From: Chromatiaceae bacterium
GTDB taxonomy: Bacteria; Pseudomonadota; Gammaproteobacteria; Chromatiales; Chromatiaceae
Assembly (NCBI GenBank): GCA_028277905.1
Contig: JANQFI010000034.1
Coordinates: forward strand, 1-53,463
Direction: 5' to 3'
Length of the DNA stretch: 53,463 bases
Of the stretch, positions 667 to 45,021 are shown piece after piece. The position numbers and the translations under genes are program-made. The notes under the pieces are model-generated. The model did not search any database, was not told where the DNA came from, and saw only the letters and a list, made by a program, of their open reading frames with translations. Within the stretch, counting starts at the first letter, position 1. Every line of letters starts with the position of its first letter.

Positions 667-3129
667 TCAGCCTTTGCCCTTGGTCGAATCGTCCGTGCCC
701 GGCTCATTGTCCATGAACATCTGGAATACCAGGTCCAGGTCTTCCTCTGTGGCGGTGCTGCCCTCGCTGGCGGGCTCGCGCGGCGCCGGCGCTCGTGCAT
801 TGCGGCCCGCATCCACGCCCTCGGCCTGCTCCGGCGCGCCGGCCGCTGGCGCCCCCACCGCCACCGCAGGCGCCACCAGTGTTGCCGGGGCTGGTGCCGA
901 GCCGGCGGGATCCGCTGTAACCTCCGCCGGGACCGCCTCGCGCGGTGTCACCCGTGCGGTTCCGTAGCCGGGGGTGCCTGGGGCCTCGGCAAAGCCGGCG
1001 CCGGCAGCGCCCGCCCGGGCAGCAGCAGGGCGCTCGCGGGTCGCAGAATGTCCGGTTCCGGTTGCAATACCCTCGGCGGTCCGATAGCGCGCGGTGCCAG
1101 CGCCGGTCGGGGTGCTGCCCGCGGCAGGCGCCGTGCTCCGCCGCATCGGCCGCGGCGCCTGCGAGCCGAACAGGCGGAAGCCGCCGCCCACGTGGATGGT
1201 CGGCCCATCCGTGCTCGCTGCCGCCGGGCGCCCGAAGCTGGGCTGTGCCGCGGCCGGGGCCTGCGACCCCATCTGCTGCAGCCGCACCAACTGGTCTTCG
1301 AGTTGTTGGATGGCCCCGTGGCGTAGAAAGTACACGTCCGGGTCGTTCGAGGGCTTGACCAGCCCACTCGCCGCGTTGCGCACCAACAGCTGATCCACCA
1401 GCTCGCGGGCGCGCGCAGTCGGGATGTCATTCAGATCGATCCGTCCTTCATAGCGCGTGCCTTGGATCTTCTCGTCATGGGCGTCCAGGTGCTTGATCAG
1501 CGACTTGATGGCGACAACGTCGGCCGCATCGCGCCGGTCGACCTCGAGCACCCGGGTGTTGAAGCTCGCCTTGGCGCTCTTGGCGCCGATGAGACCCGTG
1601 AAGAGCACCAGCAAGTCCATCGATATGGCGATGACCAGCGCGAACATTGCATCCTTCTCCCACGCGAACAGGGCGTTGGTGGTGCGAGTGAATTCCGACG
1701 CGTTGGGGCCTTCCTCCCGCTGCAAGCGGTCCAGCTTGTCGCGCAGATCACGCACCCGCTTGAACGGCAGGCGGGTCAGGTCCAGACACTCGCGGGCGCG
1801 GTCCAGAGCCGGTACCAGCGCCAGCTCGTGCAGGCTTTGTGCGTCGGCGCCGGTGCAGTGCGCGTCTACGGCGGCGAGCGCCTGGCCGCTCGCCACGACC
1901 GCCGCTACCTTGGCCTGGATCGGGCCGCGATCGCAGGACAGGCGATACAAGTCCTCCGGCGGCTCGGGGAGCGTGCGCATATTGTCCGCCAGCTGGTTGC
2001 ACAGCGTCTCCGCCTGCTCCAGATTCGCCGGGTCGGCGGTGGTCTCGAAGCGGCTCGGATAGTCGCGCAGAGACTGCACCGTCTCCTCTACCGTGCCGCC
2101 CGCGCCGAAGCCTTCCAAGCGCAGCCGGGACTCCCTCTCGCGGTTCTTGGCCCTGTCGATCTCCTGTTCGACGCTGGCGAGTCGCAGCTCCGCGGCGCTC
2201 AGTTGTCCGGCCAGATCGCGCCCTAGACCCTCCTTGCCAGCCAACTCGTCCTGCATGATTTGCAGCTCTGCCGCGAGCCGATCGCGCTGCTGCTTCAGAC
2301 CGGTCCAGACCGGTCCTCGGCCGGACTTGCCGGTTTCGCCGACACCGCCCTCTTCGTTCTTCATCTCCGCTTCCTTGCGCTTGACCGCCAGCTTCAGCCG
2401 ATTGACCTCGGCACGCAGCTCCGTCAGTTCTTCCATGGAGCCACGGGTCTGCTCCGCCGCGGCCAACCTCTCTCGCAGCCGTCGCATCTCGTCATCGAGC
2501 GCGCTCTTCTCCGCCACAATCGCTACGGTTTGCTGCTGCCGTTGCTCGAGATCCTGCTGCGCCTGGGCGCGTTGCTCCTCCAACAGCAAGCGCAGATCCG
2601 GGCCCGTCTGCAGCGCCAGTTCTGCGGCCCGGTTGATCTGCTCCCGCCAGCGCAGGTAGGGGTTGGCGGCGGCATTGCCTTTCTGTATCGCGCGCAGCTC
2701 TTGGTCGAGTTGCGATTTGAGCCGCTGCTCGGCGTCGTTGACCACCTCCACCGCGCCGTCGCGCGCCCGCCCCAGGCTGGCCTCCTGCTGCCGCTCCTCA
2801 CCGAACATGACGTTGAACAGGCTGTTGAAGGAGAAGAACACCGACAGCGTGAAGCAGACGACGAACACGCCGACGTCGATCTTGGCCACGCTCTCCTTGT
2901 CGGCCAGCATGAAGCCGAGCCGCCAGGACACGACGAACAGGAGCGACTGGATCGCCGCGGTGATGAAGAAGGCGAAGATCCAATGGGCGACGAAGGGAGT
3001 AAGGCCGACGAAGGTCGTGTAGAAGGACGCGATCGATAGCAGCACGCTCGCGATGAAGAGCAGCAGCAGGTACGGCGAGCCCTTGGCCCGGTCGAGCAGG
3101 TCCTTCCAGAAACCGCTTTTCATCATCAT
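667..3129 (-). CDS. Membrane-anchored coiled-coil protein (DUF4407-like architecture) with low-complexity Ala/Pro-rich C-terminal tail
   Basis: 820 aa; three N-terminal hydrophobic helices, long heptad-rich region with EEGGVGETGKSGRGP loop, another TM (FALVIAISMDLLVLFTGLI); AGGTAGG-like RBS upstream. Confidence 0.75.
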   Translation of the reverse strand: MMMKSGFWKDLLDRAKGSPYLLLLFIASVLLSIASFYTTFVGLTPFVAHWIFAFFITAAIQSLLFVVSWRLGFMLADKESVAKIDVGVFVVCFTLSVFFSFNSLFNVMFGEERQQEASLGRARDGAVEVVNDAEQRLKSQLDQELRAIQKGNAAANPYLRWREQINRAAELALQTGPDLRLLLEEQRAQAQQDLEQRQQQTVAIVAEKSALDDEMRRLRERLAAAEQTRGSMEELTELRAEVNRLKLAVKRKEAEMKNEEGGVGETGKSGRGPVWTGLKQQRDRLAAELQIMQDELAGKEGLGRDLAGQLSAAELRLASVEQEIDRAKNRERESRLRLEGFGAGGTVEETVQSLRDYPSRFETTADPANLEQAETLCNQLADNMRTLPEPPEDLYRLSCDRGPIQAKVAAVVASGQALAAVDAHCTGADAQSLHELALVPALDRARECLDLTRLPFKRVRDLRDKLDRLQREEGPNASEFTRTTNALFAWEKDAMFALVIAISMDLLVLFTGLIGAKSAKASFNTRVLEVDRRDAADVVAIKSLIKHLDAHDEKIQGTRYEGRIDLNDIPTARARELVDQLLVRNAASGLVKPSNDPDVYFLRHGAIQQLEDQLVRLQQMGSQAPAAAQPSFGRPAAASTDGPTIHVGGGFRLFGSQAPRPMRRSTAPAAGSTPTGAGTARYRTAEGIATGTGHSATRERPAAARAGAAGAGFAEAPGTPGYGTARVTPREAVPAEVTADPAGSAPAPATLVAPAVAVGAPAAGAPEQAEGVDAGRNARAPAPREPASEGSTATEEDLDLVFQMFMDNEPGTDDSTKGKG

Positions 3130-6623: not shown

Positions 6624-7760
6624 ATGGCGACCAGCGACGACGACTCGGAATTCCACGACGAGGACAGCACGGAGCCCGATGCAGGGTCCGAGGCTGCCAG
6701 GCGGGACGCTGCCGGGCCTGGCCTGCAGGAAGCTGCCAAGAAGCGCGGTCGGTTCTTCTCCTTACGCAAGCGCGGCGAGGAGCAGCCGCCCGGCTCGAAG
6801 AGATGCACGGTGATCGGGCCTACGCGTTCCGGCAAGACCGCGCTGATGCTGTCGCTAAGGCGCTGCGTCGACGCGCGCAGCCATTCATACGGTGCCCGCT
6901 ATGTGACGACCATCGGTCATACAAACGAGGAATACGACAGGCTGCAGCAGTGGCTGGATACCTATTTCCCGCGAGGCCTGCGGCTCGACGCCTCGGATCT
7001 CGGCACCTGCTTCGTGCCGGAGTTCACTCTCCGGGTGAGACAGCGTCACAGGCGCGGTGATGCGGGACTCCTCCACAGCCGGCACAAGACGCGCTTTCGC
7101 ACCTTTGACGGCGCCGGGGAGCTGCTGGAGAAGGCCAAGGTTGCTGCCGACCCGAGGTTTCGGGAGTGCCGCGAACGCCTCAACCAGGAACTGGCGGACT
7201 GCGATACCGTCCTCTTGTGCCTGCCCATCGGCCTGCGGATCAACCGCGATCAGGAAAGCGAGCTGAAGAACCTCCTAGAGGGTTTCATCGACAGCCGGCA
7301 GGTCCGGAGCCTGGTGGTCTGCTTCACTATGTACGAGACCCTGGGCATTGAGTACGGCCGCCTCGCCTATCGCGAGCTCGCGAACCGACTAGCCGCAAGG
7401 CGTGCGATACGCGAGGCATTGGAGCACCGGCTGTTAGGGTTGGACAATCACCTCGAACAGTTTCACCTGGCGAGCGGAAAGCGGGGCGTCTGGTGCGCGC
7501 CGGTCTCTGCTTACGGGTTCATTGCACGGAACGGCGGAGCGAATGTCGCCGTGTTCGGCAAGACCGAGCATTGTCTGCGTACGACCCCAGCCGATAAGGA
7601 TGGCAAGGCGGCGCCGACGGGCGCGCACTCGCCCTATGAACATGACGTGGCCTTGACGGACTGGTGGCGGCCCTTTTTGACCATCGACCCCTTCGTGTTC
7701 ATCACCACCGGCGATCGCCGGGGCACCCTGATCCACGCGTACGACGAGATCTTTGCGTGA
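6624..7760 (+). CDS. P-loop GTPase (TRAFAC-like, DO-GTPase-type) with atypical G4
   Basis: G1 VIGPTRSGKT, G3 FRTFDGAGE, G4-like VCFTMYE, G5-like PVSAYG, C-terminal PFLTIDPFVFI; ATG 6624 preceded by GGCGAGG (ORF track starts at 6432). Confidence 0.8.
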   Translation: MATSDDDSEFHDEDSTEPDAGSEAARRDAAGPGLQEAAKKRGRFFSLRKRGEEQPPGSKRCTVIGPTRSGKTALMLSLRRCVDARSHSYGARYVTTIGHTNEEYDRLQQWLDTYFPRGLRLDASDLGTCFVPEFTLRVRQRHRRGDAGLLHSRHKTRFRTFDGAGELLEKAKVAADPRFRECRERLNQELADCDTVLLCLPIGLRINRDQESELKNLLEGFIDSRQVRSLVVCFTMYETLGIEYGRLAYRELANRLAARRAIREALEHRLLGLDNHLEQFHLASGKRGVWCAPVSAYGFIARNGGANVAVFGKTEHCLRTTPADKDGKAAPTGAHSPYEHDVALTDWWRPFLTIDPFVFITTGDRRGTLIHAYDEIFA

Positions 7761-10700
7761 CCGAGAGCGACGCGGTCCGGGCGTACCGCTACGCGTACGG
7801 CAAGGCCGTCACCGAGCCCGGCGGCCCCATTCCCCTGGGCGATGGCTATCGTGTCACCAGCATCTCCGGCGGGATGCCCGAGTGCCTGAAGCTCCACTGC
7901 CGCCCGGGGGATCTGCTGGACAATCGCTCTACCCAGGCGCTCGTGCACCCGAAGCGAGAGCGCGACGGCGCGCTATTCTTCAGGCCCGCGTGTTGCGAAG
8001 GGCAGCGCTGGATGATTGCGAGCTGCGCGCGGGCGCGGCCCGAAGGGGGCGAAGTTGCAATGAGCCGCACCTTCACGCTGCTCGTGGCCTATGTCTTTGC
8101 CGCGGACGACTGGGCGCGCTGGGCGCCGCGGCTGTTGGCAAACACACCGCGCTGGCTCAAGGCCGAGCCGGACAGCCTCGACTTCGTCGAGCGCGGTGAC
8201 TTCCCGCAGGTGCGGATCGCTTCTGAGCAGTTGCCCCTAGACCCGGAGCAGAACCCAGGAGACACCGCCAAGCCCCTACCGCTGACCAAGAACCCGCTCT
8301 TCTGGCGCATCGCCGACGCGCTGGAGAACCCCGTCGGTCTCAAGGAGTCCAGGGCGAACCTGCTTGTCGGCACCGCCGATCGCATCGGCTCGCTGCCGGT
8401 GTTCATGCAAGCGCTGGGCTTCGCGGCGGCGCTCTTGCCGCGGGAGGCGCGGATCTACCTCACCGCGGCAGCGGGCTTCGCCGAGACCGAGCGGGCCTTC
8501 GCCGTCCAATACCACCCGGATGCACCGCCGGTGGTCGCCGAGCCCGGGTTTTTCGCCTACTACGCCGGCGTGCAGCGAAACCTCAACCCCGACATCGACC
8601 TCGCCACCTGGCAAGAGTATTGGCAGAGCAAGCACCCCGACGACCCGCTGCTCGACGAGGTCTGGCCGCGGCTCGAACAGATCGACGCCTGGGAGAGCGC
8701 GGCCGATGCGCGGCGCTGGCTCGCGCGCTGTATGGACGACCTAGTTGCCGAGCGCTCGGTGAGCGAACTGCGCGCCTGGCTGAACGGGAAGCGTCCGGAG
8801 CCACCGAAGCGCCCGCGGCGCCACCAGCCGGGCACGGCCACGGAATGGGTCGGCGTGCTCACCGAGTGCATGAACGGATGCGTCGCCGATCCCGGCGGCG
8901 GTCGGGCGGCGGCAGCCGCCCGGGCGGCGCAACTGCTCGCAACGCTGGTGCAGCCCAGCCTCCCGGAGCGCGACCGAGAACAGCAGTCGAAATTCTGGGC
9001 AGAGGCCTGGTGCAGCGTGGCCGAGCACGCCGCCGTGCCGCCGGGCGACACCGGTGCGGAGGCGGGCGTCGCGCGCACCATGCGGCAGAGGAAGGTTCTG
9101 CGCTGGTCGGTGCTCAGCGCCGTGCCCTTTCCGAGCGCTGCCGACCGCAAGCTGCCCCGTGACGGTCTCGGCATGATCCAGGACTTCACCGAGCTCCGGG
9201 TCGTCCACGAGACCCTCGATCGCGCGCGGGCCGCCTCACCCGAGGCGGCCGAGCAGATCAAGACCGCCGTCAGCAGCAAGGCGTTCAACGACCGGCTCGC
9301 GGACCTGCGCAAGCGCGCCGAGCCGATCCTGGTGCACAACCCCTACTGCCTGATTCATCTCGTGCATTTCCCGGCGCTGCTGGCGCCGCGTGCCGATGAG
9401 AGCTTTGGCGAGGACAAGGCGCTGCGGAGCGCCGTGCGCGCGATTCACCTGGCGTGCCTGCTGTATCACTGGGTCGATGTGTCCCCGCCGGCTTGGCACG
9501 CCGAGCTGCTGCGGTCGGCCCAGGCCGTCGATACGGTGGTTTCCGAACCGCGCGAACAGTTGGACGAGGCGCGCCTGCGTCACGAGCTCGAGAAACAACT
9601 GGCGGGGCACTTCAACGACTTTCTGGCGCGCTTCTTCCGCTCGGCCTATGCGCTTGAGGCCAAGGGCACGAACCGCGAGTCAACACTGTGGCAAGACGCC
9701 GTTGCCATGACGTTGCGGATAGGAATACAGCAATCCGATTGGGTCCGATACCTATCAGTGTTGCTGACCGAGCTGGACGACATAGCGAGCACTGCCAGAT
9801 CGCGAGAAGCCGGTCCCGTGGGCCCGCTGGTCCGGGTCGACCTGTTCGATCAGGCCATCGGTGATTGGATCGAGCGCAGTATCCAGATGCTGGATCAAGC
9901 CTGCGGCGATGGCGTGGACGTCGCGGTGATCGTCCTTACAGGACCGGAATCCTTGTCCGAGCTGTTGCCGCGTCCGGCTCGCGCACCCTTAGCTGCCCGC
10001 TTTGCCGACGCCTTGCACGAATGGCTGCTGCACGCGCTAGGTGCCCGCAAGCTCAGATCCGAAACACTGGCGAAGCGGGTCTTGGAGCCCTTCGTCGCAC
10101 GCCTCGAAGAGCTCGTAGAAGCCCACAGCGGTTTGAACGCCCGGCCGCCGCCGCTTCCACTCCGCCATCGCTTGCTGGAGAGTGCGAGTGCGTTGATCCG
10201 GGCGATGATCGCGTCTCCGGGGCGGCTCTCTAGGCAGCGCATCAGCGATCTCTTCGATCAGCTGGACTGGCTCTGTGGATTTACTGACCCCCAAGGGTCC
10301 GAGACCAAAGAAGTGTCCTCCGTCCAACAATACACGTCTGAATTGAGTACCCTGCTGGCCCTTTGCCTGATGCGCTGGGCGGCTGCCGAGGAGCCCCGGC
10401 CTTACTTGCCCAAATACCGGGATATTCTGACCAGATCGCCCATTCGCCATGCGCTGGCTTGGCGGCTTGGCTACCCCGGTAGCCTATATTTCGGGCGCCT
10501 GACCCCTGCGTCCGAGAACGCACAGCCAAACCGGGATCTGCCTCGCACCGCTCACGGGCAATCGATCACAGACCGGCTTCGGGTGTCTATCCTGAAGGAT
10601 GCGATGCCGTGGTCAAACGACCAGGCCAAGGTCTTAATAGGCCGCGTGGTTGCGGTGGGGGCGCTGCGCGCTTGGCGTGAGCTCTTCGGCACCGGTCCGG

Positions 10701-11639: not shown

Positions 11640-11735
11640 AACCTCTGGGTTCAAGCTATCGATCCCTTCGTCTTCATCACGACTGGTGATGACGAAGCTA
11701 CGCTGATTGACACCACCGACGAGCTGTGCAAGTGA
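11640..11735 (+). pseudogene. Duplicated 3' end of the 6624-7760 GTPase gene
   Basis: IDPFVFITTGDDEATLIDTTDELCK* versus IDPFVFITTGDRRGTLIHAYDEIFA*; same GTGA overlap into the next gene. Confidence 0.8.
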
Positions 11736-15364: not shown

Positions 15365-15401
15365 GCGTACCCCAGGCAGCCAGGGGCATTGGACCAGGAT
15401 C

Positions 15402-15895
15402 ATGCAGCCGCAAGGAATAACCGCACTTCGCGACTGCTATGGTAAGGCCCTGACCGAGCCGGGCGTGCCGGCGGTAACGGGCTTCCAGATGCAGGTCACC
15501 AGCGTGAGCCGCGGCCTGCCGGCGGGGCTCCCGGATGCCTGTGCGGCGTCCGATCTCTCAGGCTCGGTGCACGAGCTGCGCGGCAAGATCGCTGCCGAGA
15601 ATGGCAGGGCCTATTGCGGGTGCTGTTTCTGCTGAGCCTGGTCTGCGACGCGAGCGCCCGCCGCGGCAGGACGCAAGGGCGCGTGGCACTGCCCCGAGAG
15701 GAGCTGTTGCGCACGCTCAACCTTCCCGCCGAGGCGGGCCCAGCGCGGGAACGGCTCGGTGACTACCTGCATAGCCATGTCGAGGTGAATACGGCGTTGC
15801 GCGCGGCGCTGCGCCTGGCGGAGCTGGACGAGCTACCGGGTTGCCCGCGGCGGGCGCGGCCCAAAGGCGATTCTTGCCGAAGAACATACCTCTGA
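15402..15895 (+). pseudogene. Internally deleted, frameshifted copy of the GAP1-like gene
   Basis: CYGKALTEPGVP..QVTSVSRGLP matches the N-terminus; RVLFLLSLVCDASARR..LRLAELDELPGCP matches the C-terminus RLLFMLAMVRSAGARR..LGDAGLIALPGWP. Confidence 0.7.
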
Positions 15896-20874: not shown

Positions 20875-21059
20875 CTTCAGTCAAGCGGTCTAGCACTGCC
20901 TAAATGAACCTTGCCGGCAAGCTTAAGCCGAGCTAATTGTGAGCGCACGTGCCGATGATCCTGGCTTGATGTGCCCAGCCCTGGAAGTGCCTTTCTTGAT
21001 TCTTGCGTGCCCTGACATATCGCAGCAATATTGATCTATAGCCTAGGGGGAAATGGAAA

Positions 21060-35449: not shown

Positions 35450-36813
35450 CCGATTACACTGCATGGCCGGCGCTGGCACGCTGGGACGCAGACCGGCCGG
35501 CATCTCTGGCGATACGGCGTGGCATCTGGGGCAAGGTCCATGGTGCCTCCTCCGGTTACCGCTGGATCGCGCGCAGCTACGGATTCGCCACGGATTGCCC
35601 GGACCTCGCGGGCGCCTTGCGCATTGGTGCCGAGGATCTTGCGTTCTCGGCGCCGCTATGGCGCCGGCTCCCGGGCCGCTACCTGGCGTTGTGGGTCTAT
35701 CCCAGCCGCGCGCGGGACAGCACGGGTCGCCAGGCCATCCTGGAGAAGCAGGTGGCGGAGTGGTTGCCGGTTGGCGGGATGCCGTCCGCTGTTGCCGCGC
35801 TCGTACTGCTGCCGGCGTTGGCGTCGCGTACGGATGCGGACTGGTGGCAGGACAGCGGCGACGGCGATTGGGGCAATCCGGGTTTCGCGGTGCCTCTGGA
35901 GCCGGCGCTCAATGGCCCGATCCGCATCGACCCCGACACGCTGTCCTCGGCCATCGACGGCGCCCTGGACGCCTTGGCGCGCTGTGTGGACGCAGCGTCC
36001 CTCTCCGCCTTCTATGCGGCGCTGTTCGCAAGCCGGTTGCCAGCCCGGCTCCAGCTCACACAACCGCTACCGCCCGCCGCACTCGCCGCGCTGCTGCTGC
36101 CGTTGCCCCGCGACTGGGCCGACGGCCTTTCGCTCGCCGGCGGCTTGGCTGCCAGGGCTCTGGACTTGCATGATCTCGTGCTCAACTGGGACGGCATCGC
36201 GATGTCCACTGAGGGTGACGGCGGGTCGCAGAGGTGGGAGCTTGCCGACCTGGTAGCCCAGGGAGTGCAGCCGGACCCACAACAATTCGACTTGGCGGCT
36301 GCGATGGCGGAGGCCCTGCTGACCAAGCATCCAATCGCGCTTCCGGCGACCCTAGCGGCGAATGCCGGGACCTTCGTTGAACAGCCGGAGCTGAGGACGC
36401 CGGGCGCCTCACAGGGGACCGGTACCCCTATTGCGGCGACGGACTCCACCGACTCCGGCACCGATCCGAATGCGGAAGGGGTTACCGAACCGGCTTTGGC
36501 CGGATTGGGCCCTAAGGTCCTGCACCTGGATGGACTCACGCGGCTCCCGTCCGATTCGGTGCCGGTGTTGAGGTTGCTGTATGACTTTGCCACGGACGTC
36601 GATGTTGACCGCCTGGATCTGCATGCATTCGCCAAGGCGTTGCTGGCCACTGAGCGGCTGGACGAATGGCCAGTGGATCAGGTCCGAGTGCTGAGCCTTT
36701 GGCCCGATGAAGTGGCTGCCAGACTGCCGGCCTGCATCGACGGCGAGCGTTGCCGGCGCAAAGTCGATCAGCTGCGGGCGATCGCAGCGCTGCTGGCCGC
36801 CGGCGCGGAATGA
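35446..36813 (+). CDS. GTPase-associated (GAP1-like) protein
   Basis: GIWGKVHGASSGYRWIARSYGF and LPPAALAALLLPLPRDWADG mirror GVWCSGPGEGSARWVAASPGF and LSPEALACLLLPVPRALADG; ATGA overlap. Confidence 0.75.
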   Translation: MTDYTAWPALARWDADRPASLAIRRGIWGKVHGASSGYRWIARSYGFATDCPDLAGALRIGAEDLAFSAPLWRRLPGRYLALWVYPSRARDSTGRQAILEKQVAEWLPVGGMPSAVAALVLLPALASRTDADWWQDSGDGDWGNPGFAVPLEPALNGPIRIDPDTLSSAIDGALDALARCVDAASLSAFYAALFASRLPARLQLTQPLPPAALAALLLPLPRDWADGLSLAGGLAARALDLHDLVLNWDGIAMSTEGDGGSQRWELADLVAQGVQPDPQQFDLAAAMAEALLTKHPIALPATLAANAGTFVEQPELRTPGASQGTGTPIAATDSTDSGTDPNAEGVTEPALAGLGPKVLHLDGLTRLPSDSVPVLRLLYDFATDVDVDRLDLHAFAKALLATERLDEWPVDQVRVLSLWPDEVAARLPACIDGERCRRKVDQLRAIAALLAAGAE

Positions 36814-36989: not shown

Positions 36990-38135
36990 TCAATCTACCG
37001 GAGTAAACGAGTCCGAGGAGCGATCAGACTCCCCCGTACGCGCCGCGTGCAGGACCAACTCGATTGCCACTGCCCGATTCTCCGGTATATCCCCCGGCGT
37101 GGCGTTCTTAATTCCCCCCGCGGCGTACATTGACTGTTCGATGATATCCCCGAGCCTTTGCCAAAGGAAGTCGGCTGCCGCATGAGCGCGCGCGGCGGAA
37201 AGCTGGCAGTTGTTCTCAATCGTGGAAAGCCGGGTCGCCGAGCCCTCGGGAGACAGCAGGTCCACAAAACTGGTATCGCCGGAGGTCGTGTTCTCAGGGC
37301 AACTCTCGGGCCTGTAGTGGGCCTTTGCTGGCGCCGCTTGCCTCCCCCTGATATCGCGGGCGTCGGCAAACCCGATGACCCGGATCTGCGCGTCCTTCAG
37401 TTCGTGGCCCTGAGCATAAGAACGCACGGCGCCGACGATTAGGTCGAGGTAAGCCCGTAGGCTTGGCGATAGCTCCCACTTTGCGGTGGCGAAGCCGAAC
37501 GGCTCGACCTCGTCGTCAGCTCGTAACAACTCGTACAAGGTCGGGCACGGACTCGGCCCAATGGGCGCGAGCGAGCGGACATGGTCGCTCAACACACCCT
37601 GCTTCATCGCGGCAAAGAGCGCGCCAAGATCGATTGGCGGTACATAGTGACCAACGGGTCGCCTTTGCTCGGCAACGTTGTCATGCAGTGCGTTTGCGAC
37701 CTCCGTGTAGATCAGCTCGATGACGGGTAAGCACGCGTCGGAGGAACAGTCCGGCGCGGGTACGATGCGCACGGTCTGGTTGATGAGTCTGTTGAACGGC
37801 AGAAGGGCATAGCGTCCCGTGAAATGGACGGTCGCGTCTTGCCGACGGCAACGGATATCAGCCGGAACCAGAGATACCGAGCGCAGTCGCCATTCGTCTA
37901 GCAGGAACCACCCGGGAACTCCTTCCGGGTTAGCGAGGGGTTCCAGACGCAGGTAGGGTGCGAGAATCGGCGCGACGGCGAGATTCGCCATGTCCATGCT
38001 ACCCGGTGCGCGTAGTGTCAGACCGCCAACAAGCTCGGCCCAAGTCGTTGTAACCACGGCACGTTCTTCGCCGACCGCGGGCGACGAGGCGACGAGAGCG
38101 ACGGCCGGCAACAATGCCAAGATCGCTCGGCGCAT
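36990..38135 (-). CDS. Exported protein with C-terminal OmpA-like peptidoglycan-binding domain
   Basis: Signal MRRAILALLPAVALVA; FATAKWEL, IRVIGFAD, NCQLSAARAHAAADFL, ENRAVAIEL; TGATG coupling with upstream gene. Confidence 0.8.
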   Translation of the reverse strand: MRRAILALLPAVALVASSPAVGEERAVVTTTWAELVGGLTLRAPGSMDMANLAVAPILAPYLRLEPLANPEGVPGWFLLDEWRLRSVSLVPADIRCRRQDATVHFTGRYALLPFNRLINQTVRIVPAPDCSSDACLPVIELIYTEVANALHDNVAEQRRPVGHYVPPIDLGALFAAMKQGVLSDHVRSLAPIGPSPCPTLYELLRADDEVEPFGFATAKWELSPSLRAYLDLIVGAVRSYAQGHELKDAQIRVIGFADARDIRGRQAAPAKAHYRPESCPENTTSGDTSFVDLLSPEGSATRLSTIENNCQLSAARAHAAADFLWQRLGDIIEQSMYAAGGIKNATPGDIPENRAVAIELVLHAARTGESDRSSDSFTPVD

Positions 38136-38561: not shown

Positions 38562-39752
38562 TTACTGCTCGTCGGCCGAGGAGAGCAGGTAGCCCAAAGC
38601 GGTACCCCGAGCCAGGGGTCCACGCCGTCGCACGAGCCGAGTTGCTAGCGCGGTCGCGTCGCACACGGCCGTATCCACGAAGTGCTCGGACGTACTGGCG
38701 AGACGTTCGTATTGTTGCTTCGTGTTCACAATGAGCTTCCGGGCGCGGGAGTCTGAGGCCGGTCCACAGATCTCGGCTGGCGGGCTGTTGTAGATGCAGA
38801 GGATTTCAACCTGGTGGCGATGCAGTGCGTCGGCGTGAAGGTCGACATCGTGGCGGCGTGTAATGGCATCGCCGCCAGGGGCGATGGGGTGGAGCAGCGA
38901 ATATCCGGGGGAATCGCCGAACAGGACCAGGAGGCGTCGTGCGTCTGCGGCCCAGTCCAGGTCCAGACACCGATGCAGGGCGTCGCCCAGCGCATCGACG
39001 AAGTCACCACCTGGGGTCGGCTTCAGGCCGGCGAGTGCCGAGCGCAGCGCGTCCTTGTCGAAGGGGCGCAGGCGCAACTCGCCGTCCGGAGTCGGGACTT
39101 GGAGATCGTAATCCGGCCTGAGAGACAGCGCGTTGATGCCGGGGATATGGTGATCCCCGAAGGCCAATACGGCGAAGCGCAGCGGGGCGCCACCGCTCTC
39201 GGACTGGAGTGCTTCAGCGAAGGCCAGCAGCAACGACTCCAGGTGAGCTCGACGCTTCGGGTCTGCGAGCAGGAGGCCGGATACCGCCTCGATGCCGATG
39301 GTTGCGCCAGGCTGTGGATCCTTCCTTGGCTCATACCAGCGCGCGGTGCCATCGATCAGTAGGACGACATCCCAAGGCGTTTGCGATCCAGGGACGGGTA
39401 AGGGTAGGAGCGCTTGCTCGTTCCGTGCGCGCTCGACCGGGCGCAGAAGCCGGATGCGCCGGCTGCCGCCGTCGAGCTGCAAACCGCCGTTGCCGTCAGG
39501 GCGGATTACGAGCTGTACTCGGTCGCTGTCGCACTCGAGTATCTCGCAGCGGCACAAGGGTTGTCCGCGGCGATAGATGGGGACCTGGACGACATCCGCG
39601 CCCGGTAGGCGCTTCAGCGTCAGCCGCCGCCAGCCACGAGCATCGGCGCAAAGGTCGACCAAGCGGGTCGTGCGGGCGTCTGATTCCAGTACCAGCGCTT
39701 GTAGGTCTTCGCCTGGGTCGCTGCTGTCATGGGAGTGCGCGTCAGGCTCCAT
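38562..39752 (-). CDS. Cytoplasmic vWA-domain protein with divergent MIDAS
   Basis: DVVLLIDGTA, RFAVLAFGDH, GGDFVDALGDAL, LDWAADARRLLVLFGDSP; no signal peptide. Confidence 0.8.
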   Translation of the reverse strand: MEPDAHSHDSSDPGEDLQALVLESDARTTRLVDLCADARGWRRLTLKRLPGADVVQVPIYRRGQPLCRCEILECDSDRVQLVIRPDGNGGLQLDGGSRRIRLLRPVERARNEQALLPLPVPGSQTPWDVVLLIDGTARWYEPRKDPQPGATIGIEAVSGLLLADPKRRAHLESLLLAFAEALQSESGGAPLRFAVLAFGDHHIPGINALSLRPDYDLQVPTPDGELRLRPFDKDALRSALAGLKPTPGGDFVDALGDALHRCLDLDWAADARRLLVLFGDSPGYSLLHPIAPGGDAITRRHDVDLHADALHRHQVEILCIYNSPPAEICGPASDSRARKLIVNTKQQYERLASTSEHFVDTAVCDATALATRLVRRRGPLARGTALGYLLSSADEQ

Positions 39753-39779: not shown

Positions 39780-42700
39780 CTATGCCTGGTGGGTGGCGTT
39801 TTCGATCAGCGCCGCACAAGCGTGCCGCGCCGCTTGCTCATGGGCCGACAGTGTACCCGTGCCTCGCCGGAACGTCGATGCAGCCGCGGCGCGCCACTTG
39901 GCGCCTTTTAGGAATGTTTGCACGACGGGGACGTCGAGCAATTCCCGGGTCGCGGTCTCCAGCGGCGCGCCGGAACGCAGTACCGGTAACACTTCAAGTA
40001 TCGGCAAGGATTGCTCAGCCATGAACGGGGCCGGTGTCAATAGTGCCGGGTAGTCTGCGAGTATCTGCTTGAGCAGGCCGAAGCCGCGGTCGTTCTCGGC
40101 CCAAGCAGGTTGCTCGGGGGCGGCGAGGGCTTCTTCGAGCACGCCCGCGAGCTGGAGCAGCGGATGGTCGTCCTGAATCCACCCTGATGGCCCCGAAGCG
40201 CTGGACTCCGCGCATCTCTGGGCCAACTCCTTCCAGCCCTGGTCATCCGGGTCGTTGGCCTCGAGGGCTTGCAGAACCCCCGTGAACCGCTCCCGCCGCG
40301 CTGCCAGTGCTGGAGCGTCGTTGTGGAACAGGCGCGCGATTCCTTGGAGCTTGCGCTGGCACAAGGCCACGGCGACCCATCTGCTGGCGGCGTCGCAGGG
40401 TTGCTCCGGATCGGGCAAGTCTCGCGCGAGGTCGCCAATGACTTGCTCTAGGGCGACGAGCCAGTCGGACGTCGATGTGTCGCGCATCGATGCGTCTACA
40501 TGATGGCGTAGAGCACGCACCAGGTATCCTTGTGTCCACCAGGGCCAGTTCTCCAACGCCCGGACCCCGTCGCAGGGTGCTCTTGCGAGCAGGTTCGCGA
40601 CGGCCTTGCCGTGTGCGGCGAGGGCATGGGGCCGGCGTATGCCTGCATGTTGCAGCAGTGTGGCCGAGTCGGTGAGGCTCGGCGGCTCGTTGTGCTCACT
40701 TGCCTCGCCGCCCTTGGCGAGCAGCCAGTCGAAAGCGGCCGGGTTCGAGAGTTGCTCGGCGAAGCGCGATGCTGCAACAAGCTCTGTCGTCGTGGGGGCC
40801 GCGGGCGCTGCCCTGTCAATGACGCATTCCGCGAGCAGGGCGAGTGTGCCGAGGTCATCGCAACGCGCGGCTAGGTCTTTCAGGGCCTGCGGCGCGGTCG
40901 ATGCATCCCATGGCCAGCGACCTTGCGGCCCCGGACAGATCGCCCGGATGTCATCGGCGCTCAGGGTGGGCGGCAGGTCCTGATCGACCAGTTGCCAGAG
41001 CTCGCGGGTGCAGCTCGCCGGGCCGGTCGAAGCATTTCCGGTCGTCGCTTCCGCCGCCCGTGCCTGCGGGTTGCCGGCCTCGGGCGGTGATTGCCAGGCT
41101 GGGCTCGAAAGCCAGGTCAGTGCGCTCTGCCGGCGTTCCTCGTCATTGAGCTTCGTGTACCTGCGCCATTGCTCCCAGCGGCCGGTGCTAATCAGGCAGC
41201 GCGTGAGCGGCTCCGGTTGGCGGCGCATCTGCTCGTCGATCAGCGCATGGATGCGTTGCGCCGCCTGTTCCTCCGTGGTGCGGGCCGTTAGGCACCGCAC
41301 TAGCGTTGCGGGCGCAATACGCGCTGCGACGCCCTTGCGCTCGGCCAGCGCGGCCAGGTGCACGCAACCCGCCCAGGGCAGAGTCAGGCTCCCGTCGTCA
41401 TCGATGAGCGCTGAAAGCAGTGGCTCATCGTCTTCGCCGGCCGCAATGCGCTCGACGACGAGCTCCTGCTGCGCCGGTTCGGTCAATGCGGCGAGCTTCG
41501 GCCACAGGTGCTCGAGCACACTCGGCAGGCTGCTGTGTCGCGCCTTACCGATCAGTTGCACCAGAACCAGCGCCAAGTCGAGATGTGCTTGCGGATCGAG
41601 CATCCTAAGTGCCGCGGACGCCGTTTCTGCGATGTCGGCGGAAGGCTCGGTGAGCTCCCGTGCGGCACGCTCGATGACCGCTGTCAGGTCTGCGTGCCAG
41701 GGCGGCTTCAGCGGGAGGACGGCCAGCAGCGCGGGCGTCGCCTCGGTCGCCGAGCAGACTTCGCCGGTGACGAGCGTCCGCCACCAGGCAGGTTCAAGCA
41801 AGCCTTGATCGGTGGCTTGCAGCAGGATCGACAGGACGCCGGGCGCGCATGCCGCCAGAGCCAGGGCCCGATTCTGGAAGCGCCGGCGCCACAGCGTGCG
41901 CTCTTCCAGCTCTGCTGCCAATAGGGGTGCGAGCACTTCGGGAGGGATCTCAGCGAGCGGCAGGGATCGCCCTAGGTCTGCCAGCAACGATGATGGCAGA
42001 GTCTCCGGGGTCTCCACGAGCAGTTCCTGGAGTCGCTCCCGATCCGCGCGTGCGACGGAACGCCGCCAGCTGGGCCCTCGCAGCGCGAGCCGTTTCCCTG
42101 AGGCCATCAGGTGAGCCTGGGCGGCGGCCCGCAGCGCTACAGTCCCAGGTCCAAGTCGCTCGCTAGGCATCAGGATGAATGCCGCCAGCTCATTGGGATC
42201 GACGGCGGTCCAGTCCACGGCGTCGAGCAGCCGTTGCCAGGGTAGTGGGTCCCGCGCTAAGGGCATCAGGGCTTGCCGCAGCAGCCCCGTCGTGCCGGGA
42301 ACGGCCGCTGCGAGCGACGCCTCGAGCCGAAACAGCGTCGGAATCAGCCGGATCGCATCGTTGCTTGGCCGCGCATGCGCTTCCAGTAGGCGCGCAACGC
42401 GGCGGGCGGCACCTGCGAGCCACTCCGGTGCGGTGCGAGCCTCGGCGAGCATCGCTTCTGCGTAGTCAACGAAGCAAGCCTCGATTGGCGCGCTGGCGAG
42501 TGGTTCACCTTCGGCGTCTACCACGAGGGTGTTCGGTTCGGGGTCGTGGGTTGCGCCAGGCGGCTGAGAGACGCTCTGGACGTCGCTGACTGCCGGCGTC
42601 ACCCGTTGCTCCGCGGCCGCAGGTCCGGGTGAGCTGTCTTCGGGGCGTCGTGCTGGGGCCACCGGCAACGCCGCATGTGCCAGCTCGATGAGCTGGCCGA

Positions 42701-42845
42701 GCTCGGCACCATTGCTCGGCGCGGTCGGGTCGAGCGCAATCAGCAGGCGGCGATTGTAGACGCGGGCCTGGTAGAGGGCGGCCGCGAGCTGAGCGGCGAT
42801 CGCTCGGGTCCGCGCGGAGCTGAGCAGGTCGGTGGGAATGGGCAT
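39780..42845 (-). CDS. Large helical hypothetical protein, possibly GAP1-related and N-terminally truncated
   Basis: ~1020-aa Ala/Leu/Trp-rich ORF co-oriented with neighbours; ATG 42845 (track start 42908). Confidence 0.65.
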   Translation of the reverse strand: MPIPTDLLSSARTRAIAAQLAAALYQARVYNRRLLIALDPTAPSNGAELGQLIELAHAALPVAPARRPEDSSPGPAAAEQRVTPAVSDVQSVSQPPGATHDPEPNTLVVDAEGEPLASAPIEACFVDYAEAMLAEARTAPEWLAGAARRVARLLEAHARPSNDAIRLIPTLFRLEASLAAAVPGTTGLLRQALMPLARDPLPWQRLLDAVDWTAVDPNELAAFILMPSERLGPGTVALRAAAQAHLMASGKRLALRGPSWRRSVARADRERLQELLVETPETLPSSLLADLGRSLPLAEIPPEVLAPLLAAELEERTLWRRRFQNRALALAACAPGVLSILLQATDQGLLEPAWWRTLVTGEVCSATEATPALLAVLPLKPPWHADLTAVIERAARELTEPSADIAETASAALRMLDPQAHLDLALVLVQLIGKARHSSLPSVLEHLWPKLAALTEPAQQELVVERIAAGEDDEPLLSALIDDDGSLTLPWAGCVHLAALAERKGVAARIAPATLVRCLTARTTEEQAAQRIHALIDEQMRRQPEPLTRCLISTGRWEQWRRYTKLNDEERRQSALTWLSSPAWQSPPEAGNPQARAAEATTGNASTGPASCTRELWQLVDQDLPPTLSADDIRAICPGPQGRWPWDASTAPQALKDLAARCDDLGTLALLAECVIDRAAPAAPTTTELVAASRFAEQLSNPAAFDWLLAKGGEASEHNEPPSLTDSATLLQHAGIRRPHALAAHGKAVANLLARAPCDGVRALENWPWWTQGYLVRALRHHVDASMRDTSTSDWLVALEQVIGDLARDLPDPEQPCDAASRWVAVALCQRKLQGIARLFHNDAPALAARRERFTGVLQALEANDPDDQGWKELAQRCAESSASGPSGWIQDDHPLLQLAGVLEEALAAPEQPAWAENDRGFGLLKQILADYPALLTPAPFMAEQSLPILEVLPVLRSGAPLETATRELLDVPVVQTFLKGAKWRAAAASTFRRGTGTLSAHEQAARHACAALIENATHQA

Positions 42846-42873: not shown

Positions 42874-45021
42874 TCAGCGATTCCGCAGCTCGAAATAGAC
42901 GGTGCCACGCTCGTTGCGATAGGGCGTGCCCGTCCGTGCGATGAGCTCGGTCGCGGATAGCGGCGTCCATGCGTCCTCCTCGTTGTGGCTCAAGATCAGG
43001 CTGCCGTGCATCGGGCGCAACATGACCCGACCGCGATCCGCGCGTAAGCACGCGATTGCCGCGGATGCGTTGCCGTTGACGCGGTAGTCCTCACGAATGT
43101 ACGCCCGCGCGTGGCGGTAGAAGCCGCCGCCGGTCCCGCGCTGTGCCCGCAGCAGCAGAAATATGCCTTCATCGAGGTCTTCTTCGTTCGCGATGAGCAC
43201 GCCGAGCTGTCGATGGAAGCGAGCCGGCCAGATGAAGCCGTAGATGATTACCGCGGCGACCAGTAGGGCCACGGCTGCGAGCGCGAAGGGCAGTGCGCAG
43301 CGCCACCAGGGCGTCGAGTTGGTTTCGAGCAACAACGGGATCTCGCTACTGCCCAGACTGCCGTCGGCGGTTGGCGCCTGAATGATGAGCTTGTGCTGTC
43401 TGGGCGTGACGGTACCAATGCAGTGCCCGGTGCGCACCCGCAGGGTCCAGGGACGGTCGTCATCCGGCAAAGGGAGCTGCACGGGGCGGCGACCGAGCCG
43501 CCGAATACGCTCGCCGTCGTCCAGCAGGAGCCTGATGCCTGGCTTGTCGAGGTCCGTTGTCACCGATACAAGGGGTCTTCCTTCCCGAGAGACGATACGC
43601 AACGGGAGCGGTCTCGACTGGTCGTCGCCCTCGGTCATCGCGGCCAGTGCCAGCGCGTCCTGGTCGCCGAGGCTCGCTGAGCCTGGCGGCTCGTCGGCTG
43701 CGTCTTCGGTGACGCTGAGATTGATATGGGAGAACGCCATGCCGCCCAGGTAGCCGTAGGAGTCGGCGGAATCGAAGCCGTAAACGGTGATGCCGAAGGG
43801 CTCGTCGGCGCGCAGTCGATGTACCCCAGGCCGCAGCGGGAGGGCGCCGCCGCTCAGATTGGAGCCGGCAATGGGGCTGAGCTCGCTCCTGTCCACGGGC
43901 TGGCCGTCCAGTCGCAATGAGCCGAGCGCCGCCGTCGGGATGATGACGTTGACGTAGTTGATGCTGAAGCCCGACTGCGGAGTGGCGAATACGTAGCCAT
44001 CGAGAAATTGCTCTGTCGGGGGCAAGATCACGAAAAACGGATCGGACGTTACGCCATCGTACGCCGTGCCGAGCGAGAACTGGCCCATGAGCACGGGCTT
44101 GGTCGCCTCGATGACGGCGGGTCGGGCGATGATCTCTTCCAGCACCTCGCCTGCCGCGAGGCTCACTTTGCGTCGGCCGTCGATGCGGATCTCGGTATTA
44201 TCCTCGCTCGCCAGGATGCGGATCATATCGCCCCGCTGCCGCGTGGCGATGGGTAGGGTCACAATACGATTACCCCAGGTCGACAGTGGCGGCATCATCT
44301 GGACGAGATGATCACAGGCCGGGACCCCGGTCGGGACTTGTGCGCAGTCGGCCCCGGCGAGCACGCCGACCGGTGCCGTCGCCGTCACGGAGGTGCCGGT
44401 GAGGTCTCCATCGGGGGCAGCGCCGACCAAGGCGTAGACCTCGCCTCGATCCAGGTGAACGTCGAACGATGCCGGGGCGCCCCGGCCTTCCACGGGCTTT
44501 GTGGTCTCGATGTGCACGTCCGTGTCGTCGGCGGTGGCGACGATGGCCACTTGGCTCGAGCCGTCGATGGAGGGGTAGGTCAGCACGCGATAGTACCGGC
44601 CGAGCGCATCAACGGGCAGGACCAGGAAGGCGTCGGTAGAGTGCTTGACGCGATTCAGAGCGTAGACAGTGACATCACGGTCGGTTCCGATCCGCACCGA
44701 GTTGGCGGAGACCTGGTCAGGTTCCAGTCGGCGCACGCTGATTGGGAGCGCAACCTCCTTCAGGCTGCCCGCGGACACCGAGAAGCTCTCCGTCACATCG
44801 CCCACAGGTGCCGAAATCGTCCCGCTGGCGCCCTTCTGTGAGGCGATATACAGGTGTAGATCCTTCTGAAAGAACCGCGCCAACCACTCACCTGATGCAT
44901 TGGGCTGAAACGCGAACAGGAACTCGCGGCCGGCGCTGTCCGTGCCGGCTGCGAATGCTTGTGCACAGACGGCGAGCGCGAGCATCCCCAAGCCTAGGCC
45001 TGCGGCTGATCTGGCGGACAT
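42874..45021 (-). CDS. IgGFc-binding (FCGBP N-terminal-like) domain single-pass membrane protein with conserved cytoplasmic tail
   Basis: Signal peptide; DSAGREFLFAF, STDAFLVLPVDALG, CDHLVQMMPPLSTWG, DPFFVILPPTEQF, YGFDSADSYGYLGG; TM; tail homologous to that of 16028-18313. Confidence 0.85.
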   Translation of the reverse strand: MSARSAAGLGLGMLALAVCAQAFAAGTDSAGREFLFAFQPNASGEWLARFFQKDLHLYIASQKGASGTISAPVGDVTESFSVSAGSLKEVALPISVRRLEPDQVSANSVRIGTDRDVTVYALNRVKHSTDAFLVLPVDALGRYYRVLTYPSIDGSSQVAIVATADDTDVHIETTKPVEGRGAPASFDVHLDRGEVYALVGAAPDGDLTGTSVTATAPVGVLAGADCAQVPTGVPACDHLVQMMPPLSTWGNRIVTLPIATRQRGDMIRILASEDNTEIRIDGRRKVSLAAGEVLEEIIARPAVIEATKPVLMGQFSLGTAYDGVTSDPFFVILPPTEQFLDGYVFATPQSGFSINYVNVIIPTAALGSLRLDGQPVDRSELSPIAGSNLSGGALPLRPGVHRLRADEPFGITVYGFDSADSYGYLGGMAFSHINLSVTEDAADEPPGSASLGDQDALALAAMTEGDDQSRPLPLRIVSREGRPLVSVTTDLDKPGIRLLLDDGERIRRLGRRPVQLPLPDDDRPWTLRVRTGHCIGTVTPRQHKLIIQAPTADGSLGSSEIPLLLETNSTPWWRCALPFALAAVALLVAAVIIYGFIWPARFHRQLGVLIANEEDLDEGIFLLLRAQRGTGGGFYRHARAYIREDYRVNGNASAAIACLRADRGRVMLRPMHGSLILSHNEEDAWTPLSATELIARTGTPYRNERGTVYFELRNR

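What the first reader, a model, noticed from the sequence alone, without database searches (positions are those of the whole stretch)
667..45021. ~44 kb tubulin-GTPase-vWA-receptor cluster: candidate envelope-spanning conflict or membrane-remodelling system
Seen: about 17 mostly large genes, many translationally coupled, in three arms that share domains across arms (vWA, receptor tail). They include active and degenerate tubulin-like proteins, two P-loop GTPases, GAP1-like paralogues, surface receptors, coiled-coils, an OmpA domain and a dead helicase. Known (from recall): FtsZl1-type operons (Makarova and Koonin) and GTPase/GAP1 conflict systems (Kaur, Aravind and colleagues) combine tubulin-like, GTPase and vWA genes and are largely untested experimentally. 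Inference: surface receptors signal across the inner membrane to a GTP-driven polymer or scaffold used in anti-phage/antagonism or cell-cell recognition. The helicase, IgGFc receptor and paralogue array would make this a distinct subtype.
Basis: partly seen in the sequence, partly recalled or inferred. Interest (0 to 1): 0.9.

Follow-up and report, generated by a model that had tools for sequence, protein, structure and literature searches.

The report
Tubulin-pair membrane defence-like gene cluster
Seventeen clustered genes, conserved in order across distant bacteria, encode surface receptors, two switch GTPases, a membrane-anchored helicase look-alike without its ATP site and a predicted pair of tubulin relatives (one GTP-binding, one membrane-anchored without the GTP motif), likely a defence machine of a kind proposed by computer in 2010 and 2020 and, as far as my searches show, still untested.

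Summary
The cluster is real: 17 genes at 667-45021 in a Chromatiaceae-like genome. The core (receptors, tubulin-like g10, g11, dead helicase g12, helical g13, GTPase g14, g15) keeps its order in most related loci from Gammaproteobacteria and Acidobacteriota. All three arms lie together in Lamprocystis purpurea. g10 is an FtsZl1/Tubulin_2 protein. g11 has no sequence match but folds like tubulin (Z 17) and lacks the GTP motif. In both models a roughly 480-residue helical insert splits the tubulin C-terminal domain; in g11 it carries a predicted membrane hairpin. g12 is an ATP-dead MrfA-like helicase. g03 is a second DO-GTPase-like protein that tracks the tubulin across genomes. 'GAP1-like' rests on a language-model lead only; Pfam misses it. 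The OmpA-like gene is not conserved. Receptors swap ectodomains, g04/g05 duplicated independently twice, and relatives carry defence genes inside the operon, which points to a conflict role. It is a Gram-negative variant of FtsZl1 / DO-GTPase systems (Makarova and Koonin 2010; Kaur et al. 2020). This scan noted the tubulin pair and the dead helicase before on other DNA. Function is untested.

The parts
667..3129 (-). g01: membrane protein, 3+1 predicted TM segments with a long coiled-coil between them; DUF4407-like (under cut-off); left arm
   Evidence: in 3 of 200 genomes of the order sample; beside g02 in L118, L119, L128
3330..6479 (-). g02: soluble protein of no known family with a low-complexity C-terminal part; left arm, divergent from g03
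   Evidence: no Pfam hit; 29-36% identical orthologues head-to-head with g03 in L117, L119, L128; one other cluster found
6624..7760 (+). g03: second DO-GTPase-like P-loop protein; Walker A intact, G4 degenerate (TMYE)
   Evidence: profile match to g14 GTPase domain P 77.9, E 1.9e-5; alignment; co-occurrence
7757..11428 (+). g04: large protein, conserved N-terminal domain (GAP1-like by lead only), variable helical C-terminal half
   Evidence: 53% identical to g05
11726..15364 (+). g05: tandem paralogue of g04
   Evidence: Atlas 0.94 to GAP1-N2/GAP1-M clusters for residues 1-330; first 300 residues 73-86% identical to g04, last 600 31-43%
15400..15892 (+). relic of a third, internally deleted g04/g05 copy (N-terminal and C-terminal scraps in different frames)
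   Evidence: tblastn E 2e-6 and 4e-6; family HMM E 2e-12 and 5e-8
16067..18313 (+). g06: predicted single-pass receptor: signal segment, vWA with DxSxS, choice-of-anchor X, TM, conserved cytoplasmic tail of about 120 residues
18322..20874 (+). g07: second predicted single-pass vWA receptor with a more divergent tail
20875..22315 (.). low-GC insert (0.54 against 0.69 in the core) with two small orphan frames, in the slot where relatives carry defence genes
22316..25594 (+). g10: FtsZl1/Tubulin_2 protein with intact GGTGSG; about 480-residue helical insert inside the tubulin C-terminal domain
25638..28169 (+). g11: predicted pseudo-tubulin; no GTP signature; helical insert with a predicted two-helix membrane hairpin; conserved GxR at the T7-loop position
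28166..31060 (+). g12: five predicted TM segments fused to an ATP-dead MrfA/YprA-type helicase body with Zn-binding (MZB) domain
31314..33689 (+). g13: long helical (coiled-coil-like) protein, fast-evolving
   Evidence: 23-33% identical orthologues in the same slot; helical nature read from sequence, not modelled
33686..35449 (+). g14: GAP1-like N-terminal domain fused to a DO-GTPase with intact G1, G3 and G4 motifs
   Evidence: Pfam DO-GTPase2 over cut-off; P-loop in 14 of 14
35446..36813 (+). g15: paralogue of the g14 N-terminal domain
   Evidence: profile P 100 to g14; Atlas 0.94 to GAP1-N2 clusters
36990..38135 (-). g16: exported protein with a weak OmpA-like C-terminal domain; not conserved, probably an insert
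   Evidence: Pfam under cut-off; GC3 0.66; 0 of 34 genomes
38562..39752 (-). g17: soluble vWA-like protein with variant DGT motif; conserved, convergent with g15
   Evidence: its family HMM hits a Pfam-VWA protein of this genome at E 2e-5
39780..42845 (-). g18: large helical protein; most relatives carry about 130 more N-terminal residues
   Evidence: match in 19 of 50 tubulin-carrying genomes
42874..45021 (-). g19: receptor with an IgGFc-binding ectodomain on the same TM and tail as g06; most relatives have a vWA ectodomain on this tail

Best explanation
The cluster likely encodes one envelope-spanning conflict (immune-type) machine in which variable receptors and a membrane-tethered dead helicase would sense a threat, two GTPases would gate the response, and a predicted tubulin/pseudo-tubulin pair would assemble on the inner membrane and remodel it. 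Shown by sequence or model: the parts, their order and their motifs. Inferred steps: (1) g06, g07 and g19 expose swappable vWA or IgGFc domains and pass a signal through a constant cytoplasmic tail; g12 may bind incoming single-stranded DNA without unwinding it. (2) g14 (intact GTPase) and g03 (degenerate G4) with their GAP1-like partners g04, g05, g15 and g18 keep the machine off until triggered. (3) Soluble, GTP-binding g10 docks on membrane-anchored, GTP-dead g11; both have a tubulin head and a long helical stalk, as dynamin-like proteins have a GTPase head, stalk and membrane paddle, so GTP-driven co-assembly would bend, seal or breach the membrane and limit spread of the invader among neighbouring cells.
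For: Conserved order: among 39 close loci, g11 follows g10 in 28 of 33 with enough flank, g12 in 25 of 32, g13 in 21 of 28, g14/g15 in 20 of 27, and a tail receptor precedes it in 28 of 33 (profiles were built from these loci, and two misses, L042 and L066, carry the gene). Patchy spread: full-length g10 in 5 of 200 family genomes and 0 of 4 of the same genus. Strong hits of the second GTPase fall in the same 5 of 200 (two of them are in the query alignment, three are of one genus). Constant core, variable periphery: against Ca. Thiosymbion g10 is 75% identical, g11 and g12 48%, g13 28%, g04/g05 32%. g04/g05 duplicated independently in two lineages, with a conserved N-terminus and variable C-terminus here, plus a relic third copy. 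Ectodomain swap on a constant tail, and an orphan receptor with that tail elsewhere in the genome. Between receptors and tubulin, relatives carry GmrSD, UvrD plus ADP-ribosylglycohydrolase, SIR2-TPR or Mrr genes; flanks include TIR-phosphoesterase, caspase-WD40, CHAT-TPR and one true GAP1-N2 gene. Folds. Kaur et al. 2020 (PMC7159879, sections 27, 28, 35 part 1 and passages of 29 read) predict this role for DO-GTPase systems. DynA shows that a membrane-remodelling GTPase can delay phage lysis (PMC8844932, abstract read).
Against: No function is tested. No PADLOC model matches meaningfully (only weak coiled-coil and DruE hits), and no toxic enzymatic effector is recognisable among the 17 genes. 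The defence-neighbour list comes from 57 hand-picked proteins with no background control; many of those neighbours are ordinary (transporters, nif, kinases, PBP-OmpA, Ig-repeat proteins). GAP1 identity fails Pfam and a profile test against 6 GAP1-N2 proteins (best P 7). The Foldseek hits of g11 to Drp1, BDLP and Mgm1 have TM-scores of 0.14-0.19 and rmsd over 26, so they show only a long helical shape. g10 is 53-60% identical between Gammaproteobacteria and Acidobacteriota, more conserved than many defence proteins. The Myxococcota form keeps receptors, both tubulins and the helicase but showed no g13 (0 of 21 loci), g14/g15 (0 of 7) or second GTPase (0 of 11 genomes), so the GTPase switch is not obligatory. 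TM segments come from hydropathy alone.
Confidence: 0.45

Rival explanations
1. A constitutive adhesion or cell-contact organelle: integrin-like vWA/Ig receptors are tied through the inner membrane to a tubulin-like scaffold that shapes the envelope for aggregation, kin recognition or host attachment (Makarova and Koonin's membrane-remodelling reading).
For: Two to four surface vWA receptors per locus with intact DxSxS; profile hits to integrin I-domains, collagen VI and TRAP; IgGFc ectodomain in this genome and in Ca. Thiosymbion; L. purpurea is scored multicellular in Kaur's table; no toxic effector in the core.
Against: Absent from 4 of 4 same-genus genomes searched; defence genes inserted inside the operon in several relatives; a dead DNA helicase has no obvious place in adhesion.
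Confidence: 0.28
2. A gate for DNA or protein traffic across the envelope: g12 is a DNA-binding membrane receptor and the tubulin pair builds a conduit or vesicle.
Against: No secretin, outer-membrane channel, relaxase or translocase is conserved with the core; I saw type II secretion genes next to the cluster only in this window.
Confidence: 0.12
3. Only the central operon and the g18-g17 arm are one system; the left arm (g01-g05) is a separate module that landed next to it.
For: In G018 the left arm lies about 54-68 kb inside another contig, and in Ca. Thiosymbion also on another contig; most relatives lack g01, g02, g04.
Against: Left arm directly upstream of g06-g07 in L. purpurea and one more lineage; when apart it has its own tail receptor (L118, L119, L149); g01 was found in 3 of 200 genomes, all of them tubulin carriers; g03 is the homologue of the GTPase that other relatives keep in the right arm.
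Confidence: 0.1

Closest known systems
FtsZl1 (Pfam Tubulin_2, PF13809) operons, Makarova and Koonin 2010, PMC2875224 (parts 1-2 of 5 of the text, supplement 6, part 2 of supplement 5 and term searches read)
   Same: Large FtsZ-like protein with GTP signature and long helical region, next to vWA genes, a distinct GTPase, membrane proteins and sometimes OmpA; predicted membrane-remodelling complex.
   Different: The paper could not align T6-H7 or any tubulin C-terminal domain; the models here complete that domain after a long insert. No pseudo-tubulin is named there; 'helicase' and 'DUF1998' were not found in the supplements searched, though family B12 is listed as a membrane zincin fused to a Zn finger. 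Its family list has no bacterial entry described like g01, g02, g13 or g18; I did not compare sequences with B1-B12.
DO-GTPase (GTPase-centric) conflict systems, GAP1-N2 tubulin theme, Kaur, Burroughs, Iyer and Aravind 2020, PMC7159879 (sections 27, 28, 35 part 1, passages of 29 read)
   Same: Two GTPases, one matching Pfam DO-GTPase2; GAP1-like partners, one fused to the GTPase; two tubulin genes and two vWA genes as in the firmicute version; membrane components.
   Different: The paper restricts the tubulin theme to firmicutes and actinobacteria, with Zn-ribbon GTPases and FNIII proteins. Here the hosts are Gammaproteobacteria and Acidobacteriota, no Zn ribbon precedes either GTPase, no FNIII or GASH hit was seen, GAP1 Pfam models miss, and a dead helicase and several tail receptors are added. 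The paper's Figure 1 source data could not be read (too large) and may list such neighbourhoods.
MrfA/YprA (DUF1998) helicases, Roske et al., PMC7797055 (passages read); DISARM DUF1998 protein and Druantia DruE
   Same: g12 matches 6znp over both the RecA and C-terminal regions (E 3.7e-21) and keeps the MZB domain (24 of 27 members).
   Different: Walker A lysine and DExH are replaced, and five predicted TM segments are added at the N-terminus.
Bacterial dynamin-like proteins (DynA, BDLP); DynA phage role in PMC8844932 (abstract read)
   Same: Works-like comparison only: GTPase head, long helical stalk and membrane-inserting tip; that such proteins often act in pairs is recalled, not from a call.
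   Different: The head is tubulin-fold, not P-loop; structural overlap with dynamins is low (TM-score 0.14-0.19). Not a member.

Membership tests
FtsZl1 / Tubulin_2 operon | N-terminal FtsZ-like domain with GGGTG(S/T)G-type loop | tested here: met
   Pfam E 1.6e-41; GGTGSG in 30 of 30; Z 24.2 to CetZ
FtsZl1 / Tubulin_2 operon | Extended coiled-coil/helical region after the GTPase domain | tested here: met
   helices from residue 347 to about 834 in the model
FtsZl1 / Tubulin_2 operon | Adjacent vWA gene(s) with intact MIDAS | tested here: met
FtsZl1 / Tubulin_2 operon | Diverged P-loop GTPase in the operon | tested here: met
   g14, g03
FtsZl1 / Tubulin_2 operon | OmpA-family gene (frequent, not obligatory) | tested here: inconclusive
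   g16 under Pfam cut-off and in 0 of 34 other genomes
DO-GTPase conflict system (Kaur 2020) | DO-GTPase with conserved Walker B glutamate | tested here: met
   DO-GTPase2 30.7 bits over cut-off 27, 40 bits in Ca. Thiosymbion; E425 invariant in 14 of 14
DO-GTPase conflict system (Kaur 2020) | Second paralogous GTPase (38% of systems) | tested here: met
   g03 profile match P 77.9, E 1.9e-5; no Pfam hit of its own
DO-GTPase conflict system (Kaur 2020) | GAP1 protein (GAP1-N, M, C domains) | tested here: inconclusive
   no PF20012, PF20013 or PF20014 match in this genome; Atlas 0.94 with 193-199 shared features for g15 and g05 N-termini; profile test against 6 GAP1-N2 proteins not significant; no fold was made for these domains
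GAP1-N2 tubulin theme (Kaur 2020) | FNIII-repeat protein as third component | tested here: inconclusive
   no FNIII or GASH Pfam hit among the window proteins; the repeats are described as fast-evolving
GAP1-N2 tubulin theme (Kaur 2020) | GTPase with N-terminal zinc ribbons (usual) | tested here: not met
   g14 begins with the GAP1-like domain, g03 with an acidic low-complexity stretch
GAP1-N2 tubulin theme (Kaur 2020) | Two tubulin-domain genes and two vWA genes (firmicute version) | tested here: met
   g10, g11; g06, g07
GAP1-N2 tubulin theme (Kaur 2020) | Restricted to firmicutes and actinobacteria | tested here: not met
   record titles of relatives name Chromatiaceae, Methylococcaceae, Competibacteraceae, Thermoanaerobaculia, Terriglobia, Myxococcota
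Active MrfA/YprA helicase | Walker A lysine and DExH | tested here: not met
   GK[ST] in 0 of 27; no DExH at motif II
Characterised anti-phage system (PADLOC 2.0) | Significant matches to the system's models | tested here: not met
   2 of 19 proteins had weak hits only, E 9e-5 or worse
Anti-phage or conflict function | Protection or toxicity on expression | not testable with these tools
   needs experiment

The most novel reading that the evidence does not exclude
g10 and g11 form an obligate active/pseudo heterodimer, a tubulin-headed analogue of dynamin. The GTP-dead subunit anchors the polymer through a hairpin at the end of a long stalk and lends a conserved arginine at the T7 position (38 of 39) to the partner's GTP site. 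A membrane-tethered dead helicase that detects incoming DNA and swappable surface receptors trigger it. This would be a tubulin-family membrane-remodelling engine used for immunity.
Probability: 0.22. Interest if true: 0.85.

Novelty: new variant of a known kind. Interest (0 to 1): 0.55.

Why it matters
FtsZl1 proteins were flagged in 2010 as among the most diverged tubulin relatives, and my literature searches turned up no experimental study of them or of DO-GTPase systems. This locus gives a full parts list for a Gram-negative subtype and a cultured carrier with all three arms (Lamprocystis purpurea DSM 4197). It adds two testable structural points: the tubulin C-terminal domain thought missing is predicted to be present after a long insert, and the neighbour gene is a predicted membrane-anchored pseudo-tubulin. 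If the immune reading holds, it would add a tubulin-based membrane response to bacterial defence.

Tried and rejected
Complex prediction of g10 with g11 was not available, so binding is untested. The representative-protein search with the g11 alignment was still queued when I stopped; family size for g11 is not given. Sequence alone did not show g11 to be a tubulin: no Pfam or PDB sequence hit, profile to g10 at best P 49; only the fold did. The receptor tail looked FHA-like by eye, but its 51-row profile matched nothing in PDB or Pfam: rejected as unshown. A TagF-like reading of g14/g15 (recalled) got no PDB hit. g04/g05, g14/g15 and g18 N-termini did not match each other by profile, so calling them one family rests on the Atlas lead. 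g11 as a dynamin: rejected. The single-protein scan of genome contigs found nothing; the alignment scan worked. No relative in viral contigs. No RNA holder listed; the only DNA holder may be the source sample. No tRNA in the window. Link to the adjacent type II secretion genes: not seen in relatives examined, rejected. The frames at 21120-21665 and 21641-22225 have no Pfam hit and may not be genes.
Full report
Observation. The window is a whole contig (C689) of a 5.1 Mb, 86% complete genome. The closest named relatives of g10 are Chromatiaceae (Ca. Thiosymbion 75%). Seventeen large genes fill 667-45021: g02 and g01 on the minus strand, g03-g07 and g10-g15 on the plus strand, and g19-g16 converging from the right. 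Four of 14 same-strand junctions overlap by 4 bases and 8 of 14 are 43 bases or less. Type II secretion genes follow from 45332.

The tubulin pair. g10 matches Pfam Tubulin_2 (E 1.6e-41) and keeps GGTGSG in 30 of 30 aligned relatives. Its model (mean pLDDT 75) aligns to CetZ at Z 24.2, rmsd 6.2 over 317 residues, and to CetZ2 at Z 20.8, rmsd 4.0 over 297 residues spanning 12-906; unrelated folds start at Z 8. g11 has no useful Pfam or PDB sequence hit. Its model (mean pLDDT 86) aligns to CetZ and BtubA at Z 17.2, rmsd 4.4, over 276 and 307 residues spanning 7-842; the first 16 rows are all tubulin-family and the next is Z 10.3. In both models the matched range runs from the N-terminus to strands near the far end, with about 480 mostly helical residues between, so the insert sits inside the tubulin C-terminal domain. 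Makarova and Koonin could not find that domain. g11 lacks the GGTG motif in 39 of 39 relatives, has two hydrophobic segments in the insert and keeps G and R at the loop after the core helix (36 and 38 of 39). Calling that loop T7 is my reading of the secondary-structure order. g10 has invariant E306, D308, N309, Y310, E311 at the corresponding place. Foldseek also lists dynamin-like proteins for g11, with TM-scores of 0.14-0.19; this is a likeness of shape only.

Helicase and GTPases. The g12 profile hits MrfA/YprA (6znp) at E 3.7e-21 in two stretches; 24 of 27 members carry MZB, 19 of 27 four Zn cysteines. None has the Walker A lysine motif and none has DExH at motif II. Five N-terminal TM segments are predicted. 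g14 carries a DO-GTPase2 domain over cut-off, with the P-loop in 14 of 14 and a K-x-D G4 in 13 of 14. g03 matches it by profile (P 77.9, E 1.9e-5) and also matches (P 49, E 1.7e-4) a GTPase that other relatives keep in the right arm; both have a degenerate G4.

GAP1. The N-terminal domains of g15 and g05 score 0.94 to GAP1-N2/GAP1-M clusters in the Atlas. Against this, Pfam GAP1-N1, N2 and M find nothing in this genome, and profile tests against 6 GAP1-N2 proteins are not significant. One relative (L059) has a true GAP1-N2 plus M gene directly upstream of g06. I leave membership open.

Receptors. g06 and g07 have DxSxS (26 of 26 aligned receptors), and their profile hits vWA structures (best E 1e-10). 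g06 and g19 share TM and tail; a tail profile finds 100 of 126 receptor-family proteins in the loci, but not g07. g19 has an IgGFc-binding ectodomain here and in Ca. Thiosymbion, whereas 10 of the 30 other receptors scanned show a vWA hit and none IgGFc. An unlinked receptor with the same tail and a vWA-type motif lies on contig C294.

Conservation. The alignment scan found 220 relatives in the species collection and kept the best 80. In the 39 closest loci, counting only those with enough flank, g11 follows in 28 of 33, g12 in 25 of 32, g13 in 21 of 28 and g14/g15 in 20 of 27; a tail receptor precedes in 28 of 33 (L082 left out as a second copy; profiles built from the same loci). Most misses are Lamprocystis/Thiodictyon loci where g10 stands apart. 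In 40 more distant loci, mostly Myxococcota, g11-like and g12-like genes persist (26 of 28, 18 of 24) but g13 and g14/g15 were not found (0 of 21, 0 of 7), and FHA and kinase genes appear. g18 matched in 19 of 50 tubulin carriers, with g17 convergent on g15 in 8 of the 9 right-flank stretches fetched for (the ninth, L136, held only g18). The left arm was found in 3 of 200 order-level genomes. It lies directly upstream of g06-g07 in L. purpurea, which thus has all three arms on one contig, and in a second lineage 86% identical in DNA (three other contigs are near-copies of L. purpurea). In G018 and Ca. Thiosymbion it is on other contigs with its own tail receptor. In the 200-genome family sample, full-length g10 and strong second-GTPase hits fall in the same 5 genomes; kin are not independent. 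g16 was found in 0 of 34 genomes.

Signs of conflict. Presence is patchy (0 of 4 same-genus genomes). g04/g05 duplicated separately here and in L155 (tree); here the first 300 residues are 73-86% identical and the last 600 only 31-43%, and a third copy has decayed. Inside the operon, relatives carry GmrSD, UvrD with ADP-ribosylglycohydrolase, SIR2-TPR or Mrr genes; this window has a low-GC insert in the same slot. Flanks include TIR-phosphoesterase, caspase and CHAT proteins. These came from 57 hand-picked neighbours (191 candidates listed) without a background, and the same slot also holds a transglutaminase-like, an NMT1-like or a sulfate-transporter gene in other loci. PADLOC gives no meaningful match.

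Mechanism. I put 0.45 on a triggered, envelope-spanning immune machine whose output is co-assembly of g10 and g11 on the inner membrane, 0.28 on an adhesion or contact organelle, 0.12 on a traffic gate and 0.10 on the left arm being separate. Parts and order are shown; sensing, switching, binding and outcome are inferred.

What is known. It is a member of the FtsZl1 operons (PMC2875224) and works like the tubulin theme of the DO-GTPase systems (PMC7159879), but differs in host range, lack of zinc ribbons and the added helicase and receptors, so I do not file it under that theme. Searches for FtsZl1, DO-GTPase, GAP1-N2 and related terms returned these two papers and passing mentions only; a 2026 preprint cites DO-GTPases as immune without new data on them (passages). 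Kaur's source-data file could not be read. Earlier notes of this scan describe the same tubulin pair and dead helicase in other genomes; I had submitted the g11 fold and the g12 search before reading them. What this locus adds is the three-arm layout, the second GTPase link, receptor swapping and repeated g04/g05 duplication. Verdict: real, new variant of a known kind, interest 0.55.

Noticed in passing
G000:C294:10223-12901 (L137), minus strand, at the contig end: Unlinked receptor with a vWA-type motif, stalk, TM and the same cytoplasmic tail as g06/g19 (39% to g19); suggests a dispersed receptor repertoire.
   Followed up: partly
window 11503-11726: Scraps of g04 and of the g03 C-terminus (70% over 23 residues) precede g05, so the duplicated unit included the end of g03.
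   Followed up: partly
window 21590-21665: Short GTCGTT/GTAATC-type repeat run inside the low-GC insert; resembles a small repeated element of Chromatiaceae (recalled, not tested).
   Followed up: no
window 45332-51515: Type II secretion genes gspK, L, M, C-like and D (secretin), followed by a DegT-family aminotransferase; ordinary.
   Followed up: no
window 1-387: C-terminal end of a gene with a weak PEP-CTERM motif, cut by the contig start.
   Followed up: no
L121:3473-11705, L124, L129, L133: In many relatives the right arm holds two more conserved membrane genes of no known family (about 580-650 and 410-480 residues) and the second GTPase; these are absent where the g01-g05 arm is present.
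   Followed up: partly
L123, L126, L132, L134: Thermoanaerobaculia loci have arrays of CHAT-TPR and caspase genes directly upstream of the receptors.
   Followed up: partly
L043:577-9722 (Lamprocystis purpurea): UvrD-like plus ADP-ribosylglycohydrolase pair and a GmrSD gene inserted between the receptor and tubulin genes.
   Followed up: partly
L073-L113: A Myxococcota/Bradymonadales form keeps receptors, tubulin, pseudo-tubulin and (Myxococcota) the dead helicase, with FHA, PP2C and Ser/Thr kinase genes in place of the GTPases.
   Followed up: partly
G147:C1 (three loci near 0.10, 2.35 and 4.14 Mb, second GTPase near 6.0 Mb): One near-complete genome carries two full-length copies of this tubulin operon and a distant third tubulin-like gene, with the second GTPase and a g18 copy far away.
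   Followed up: partly
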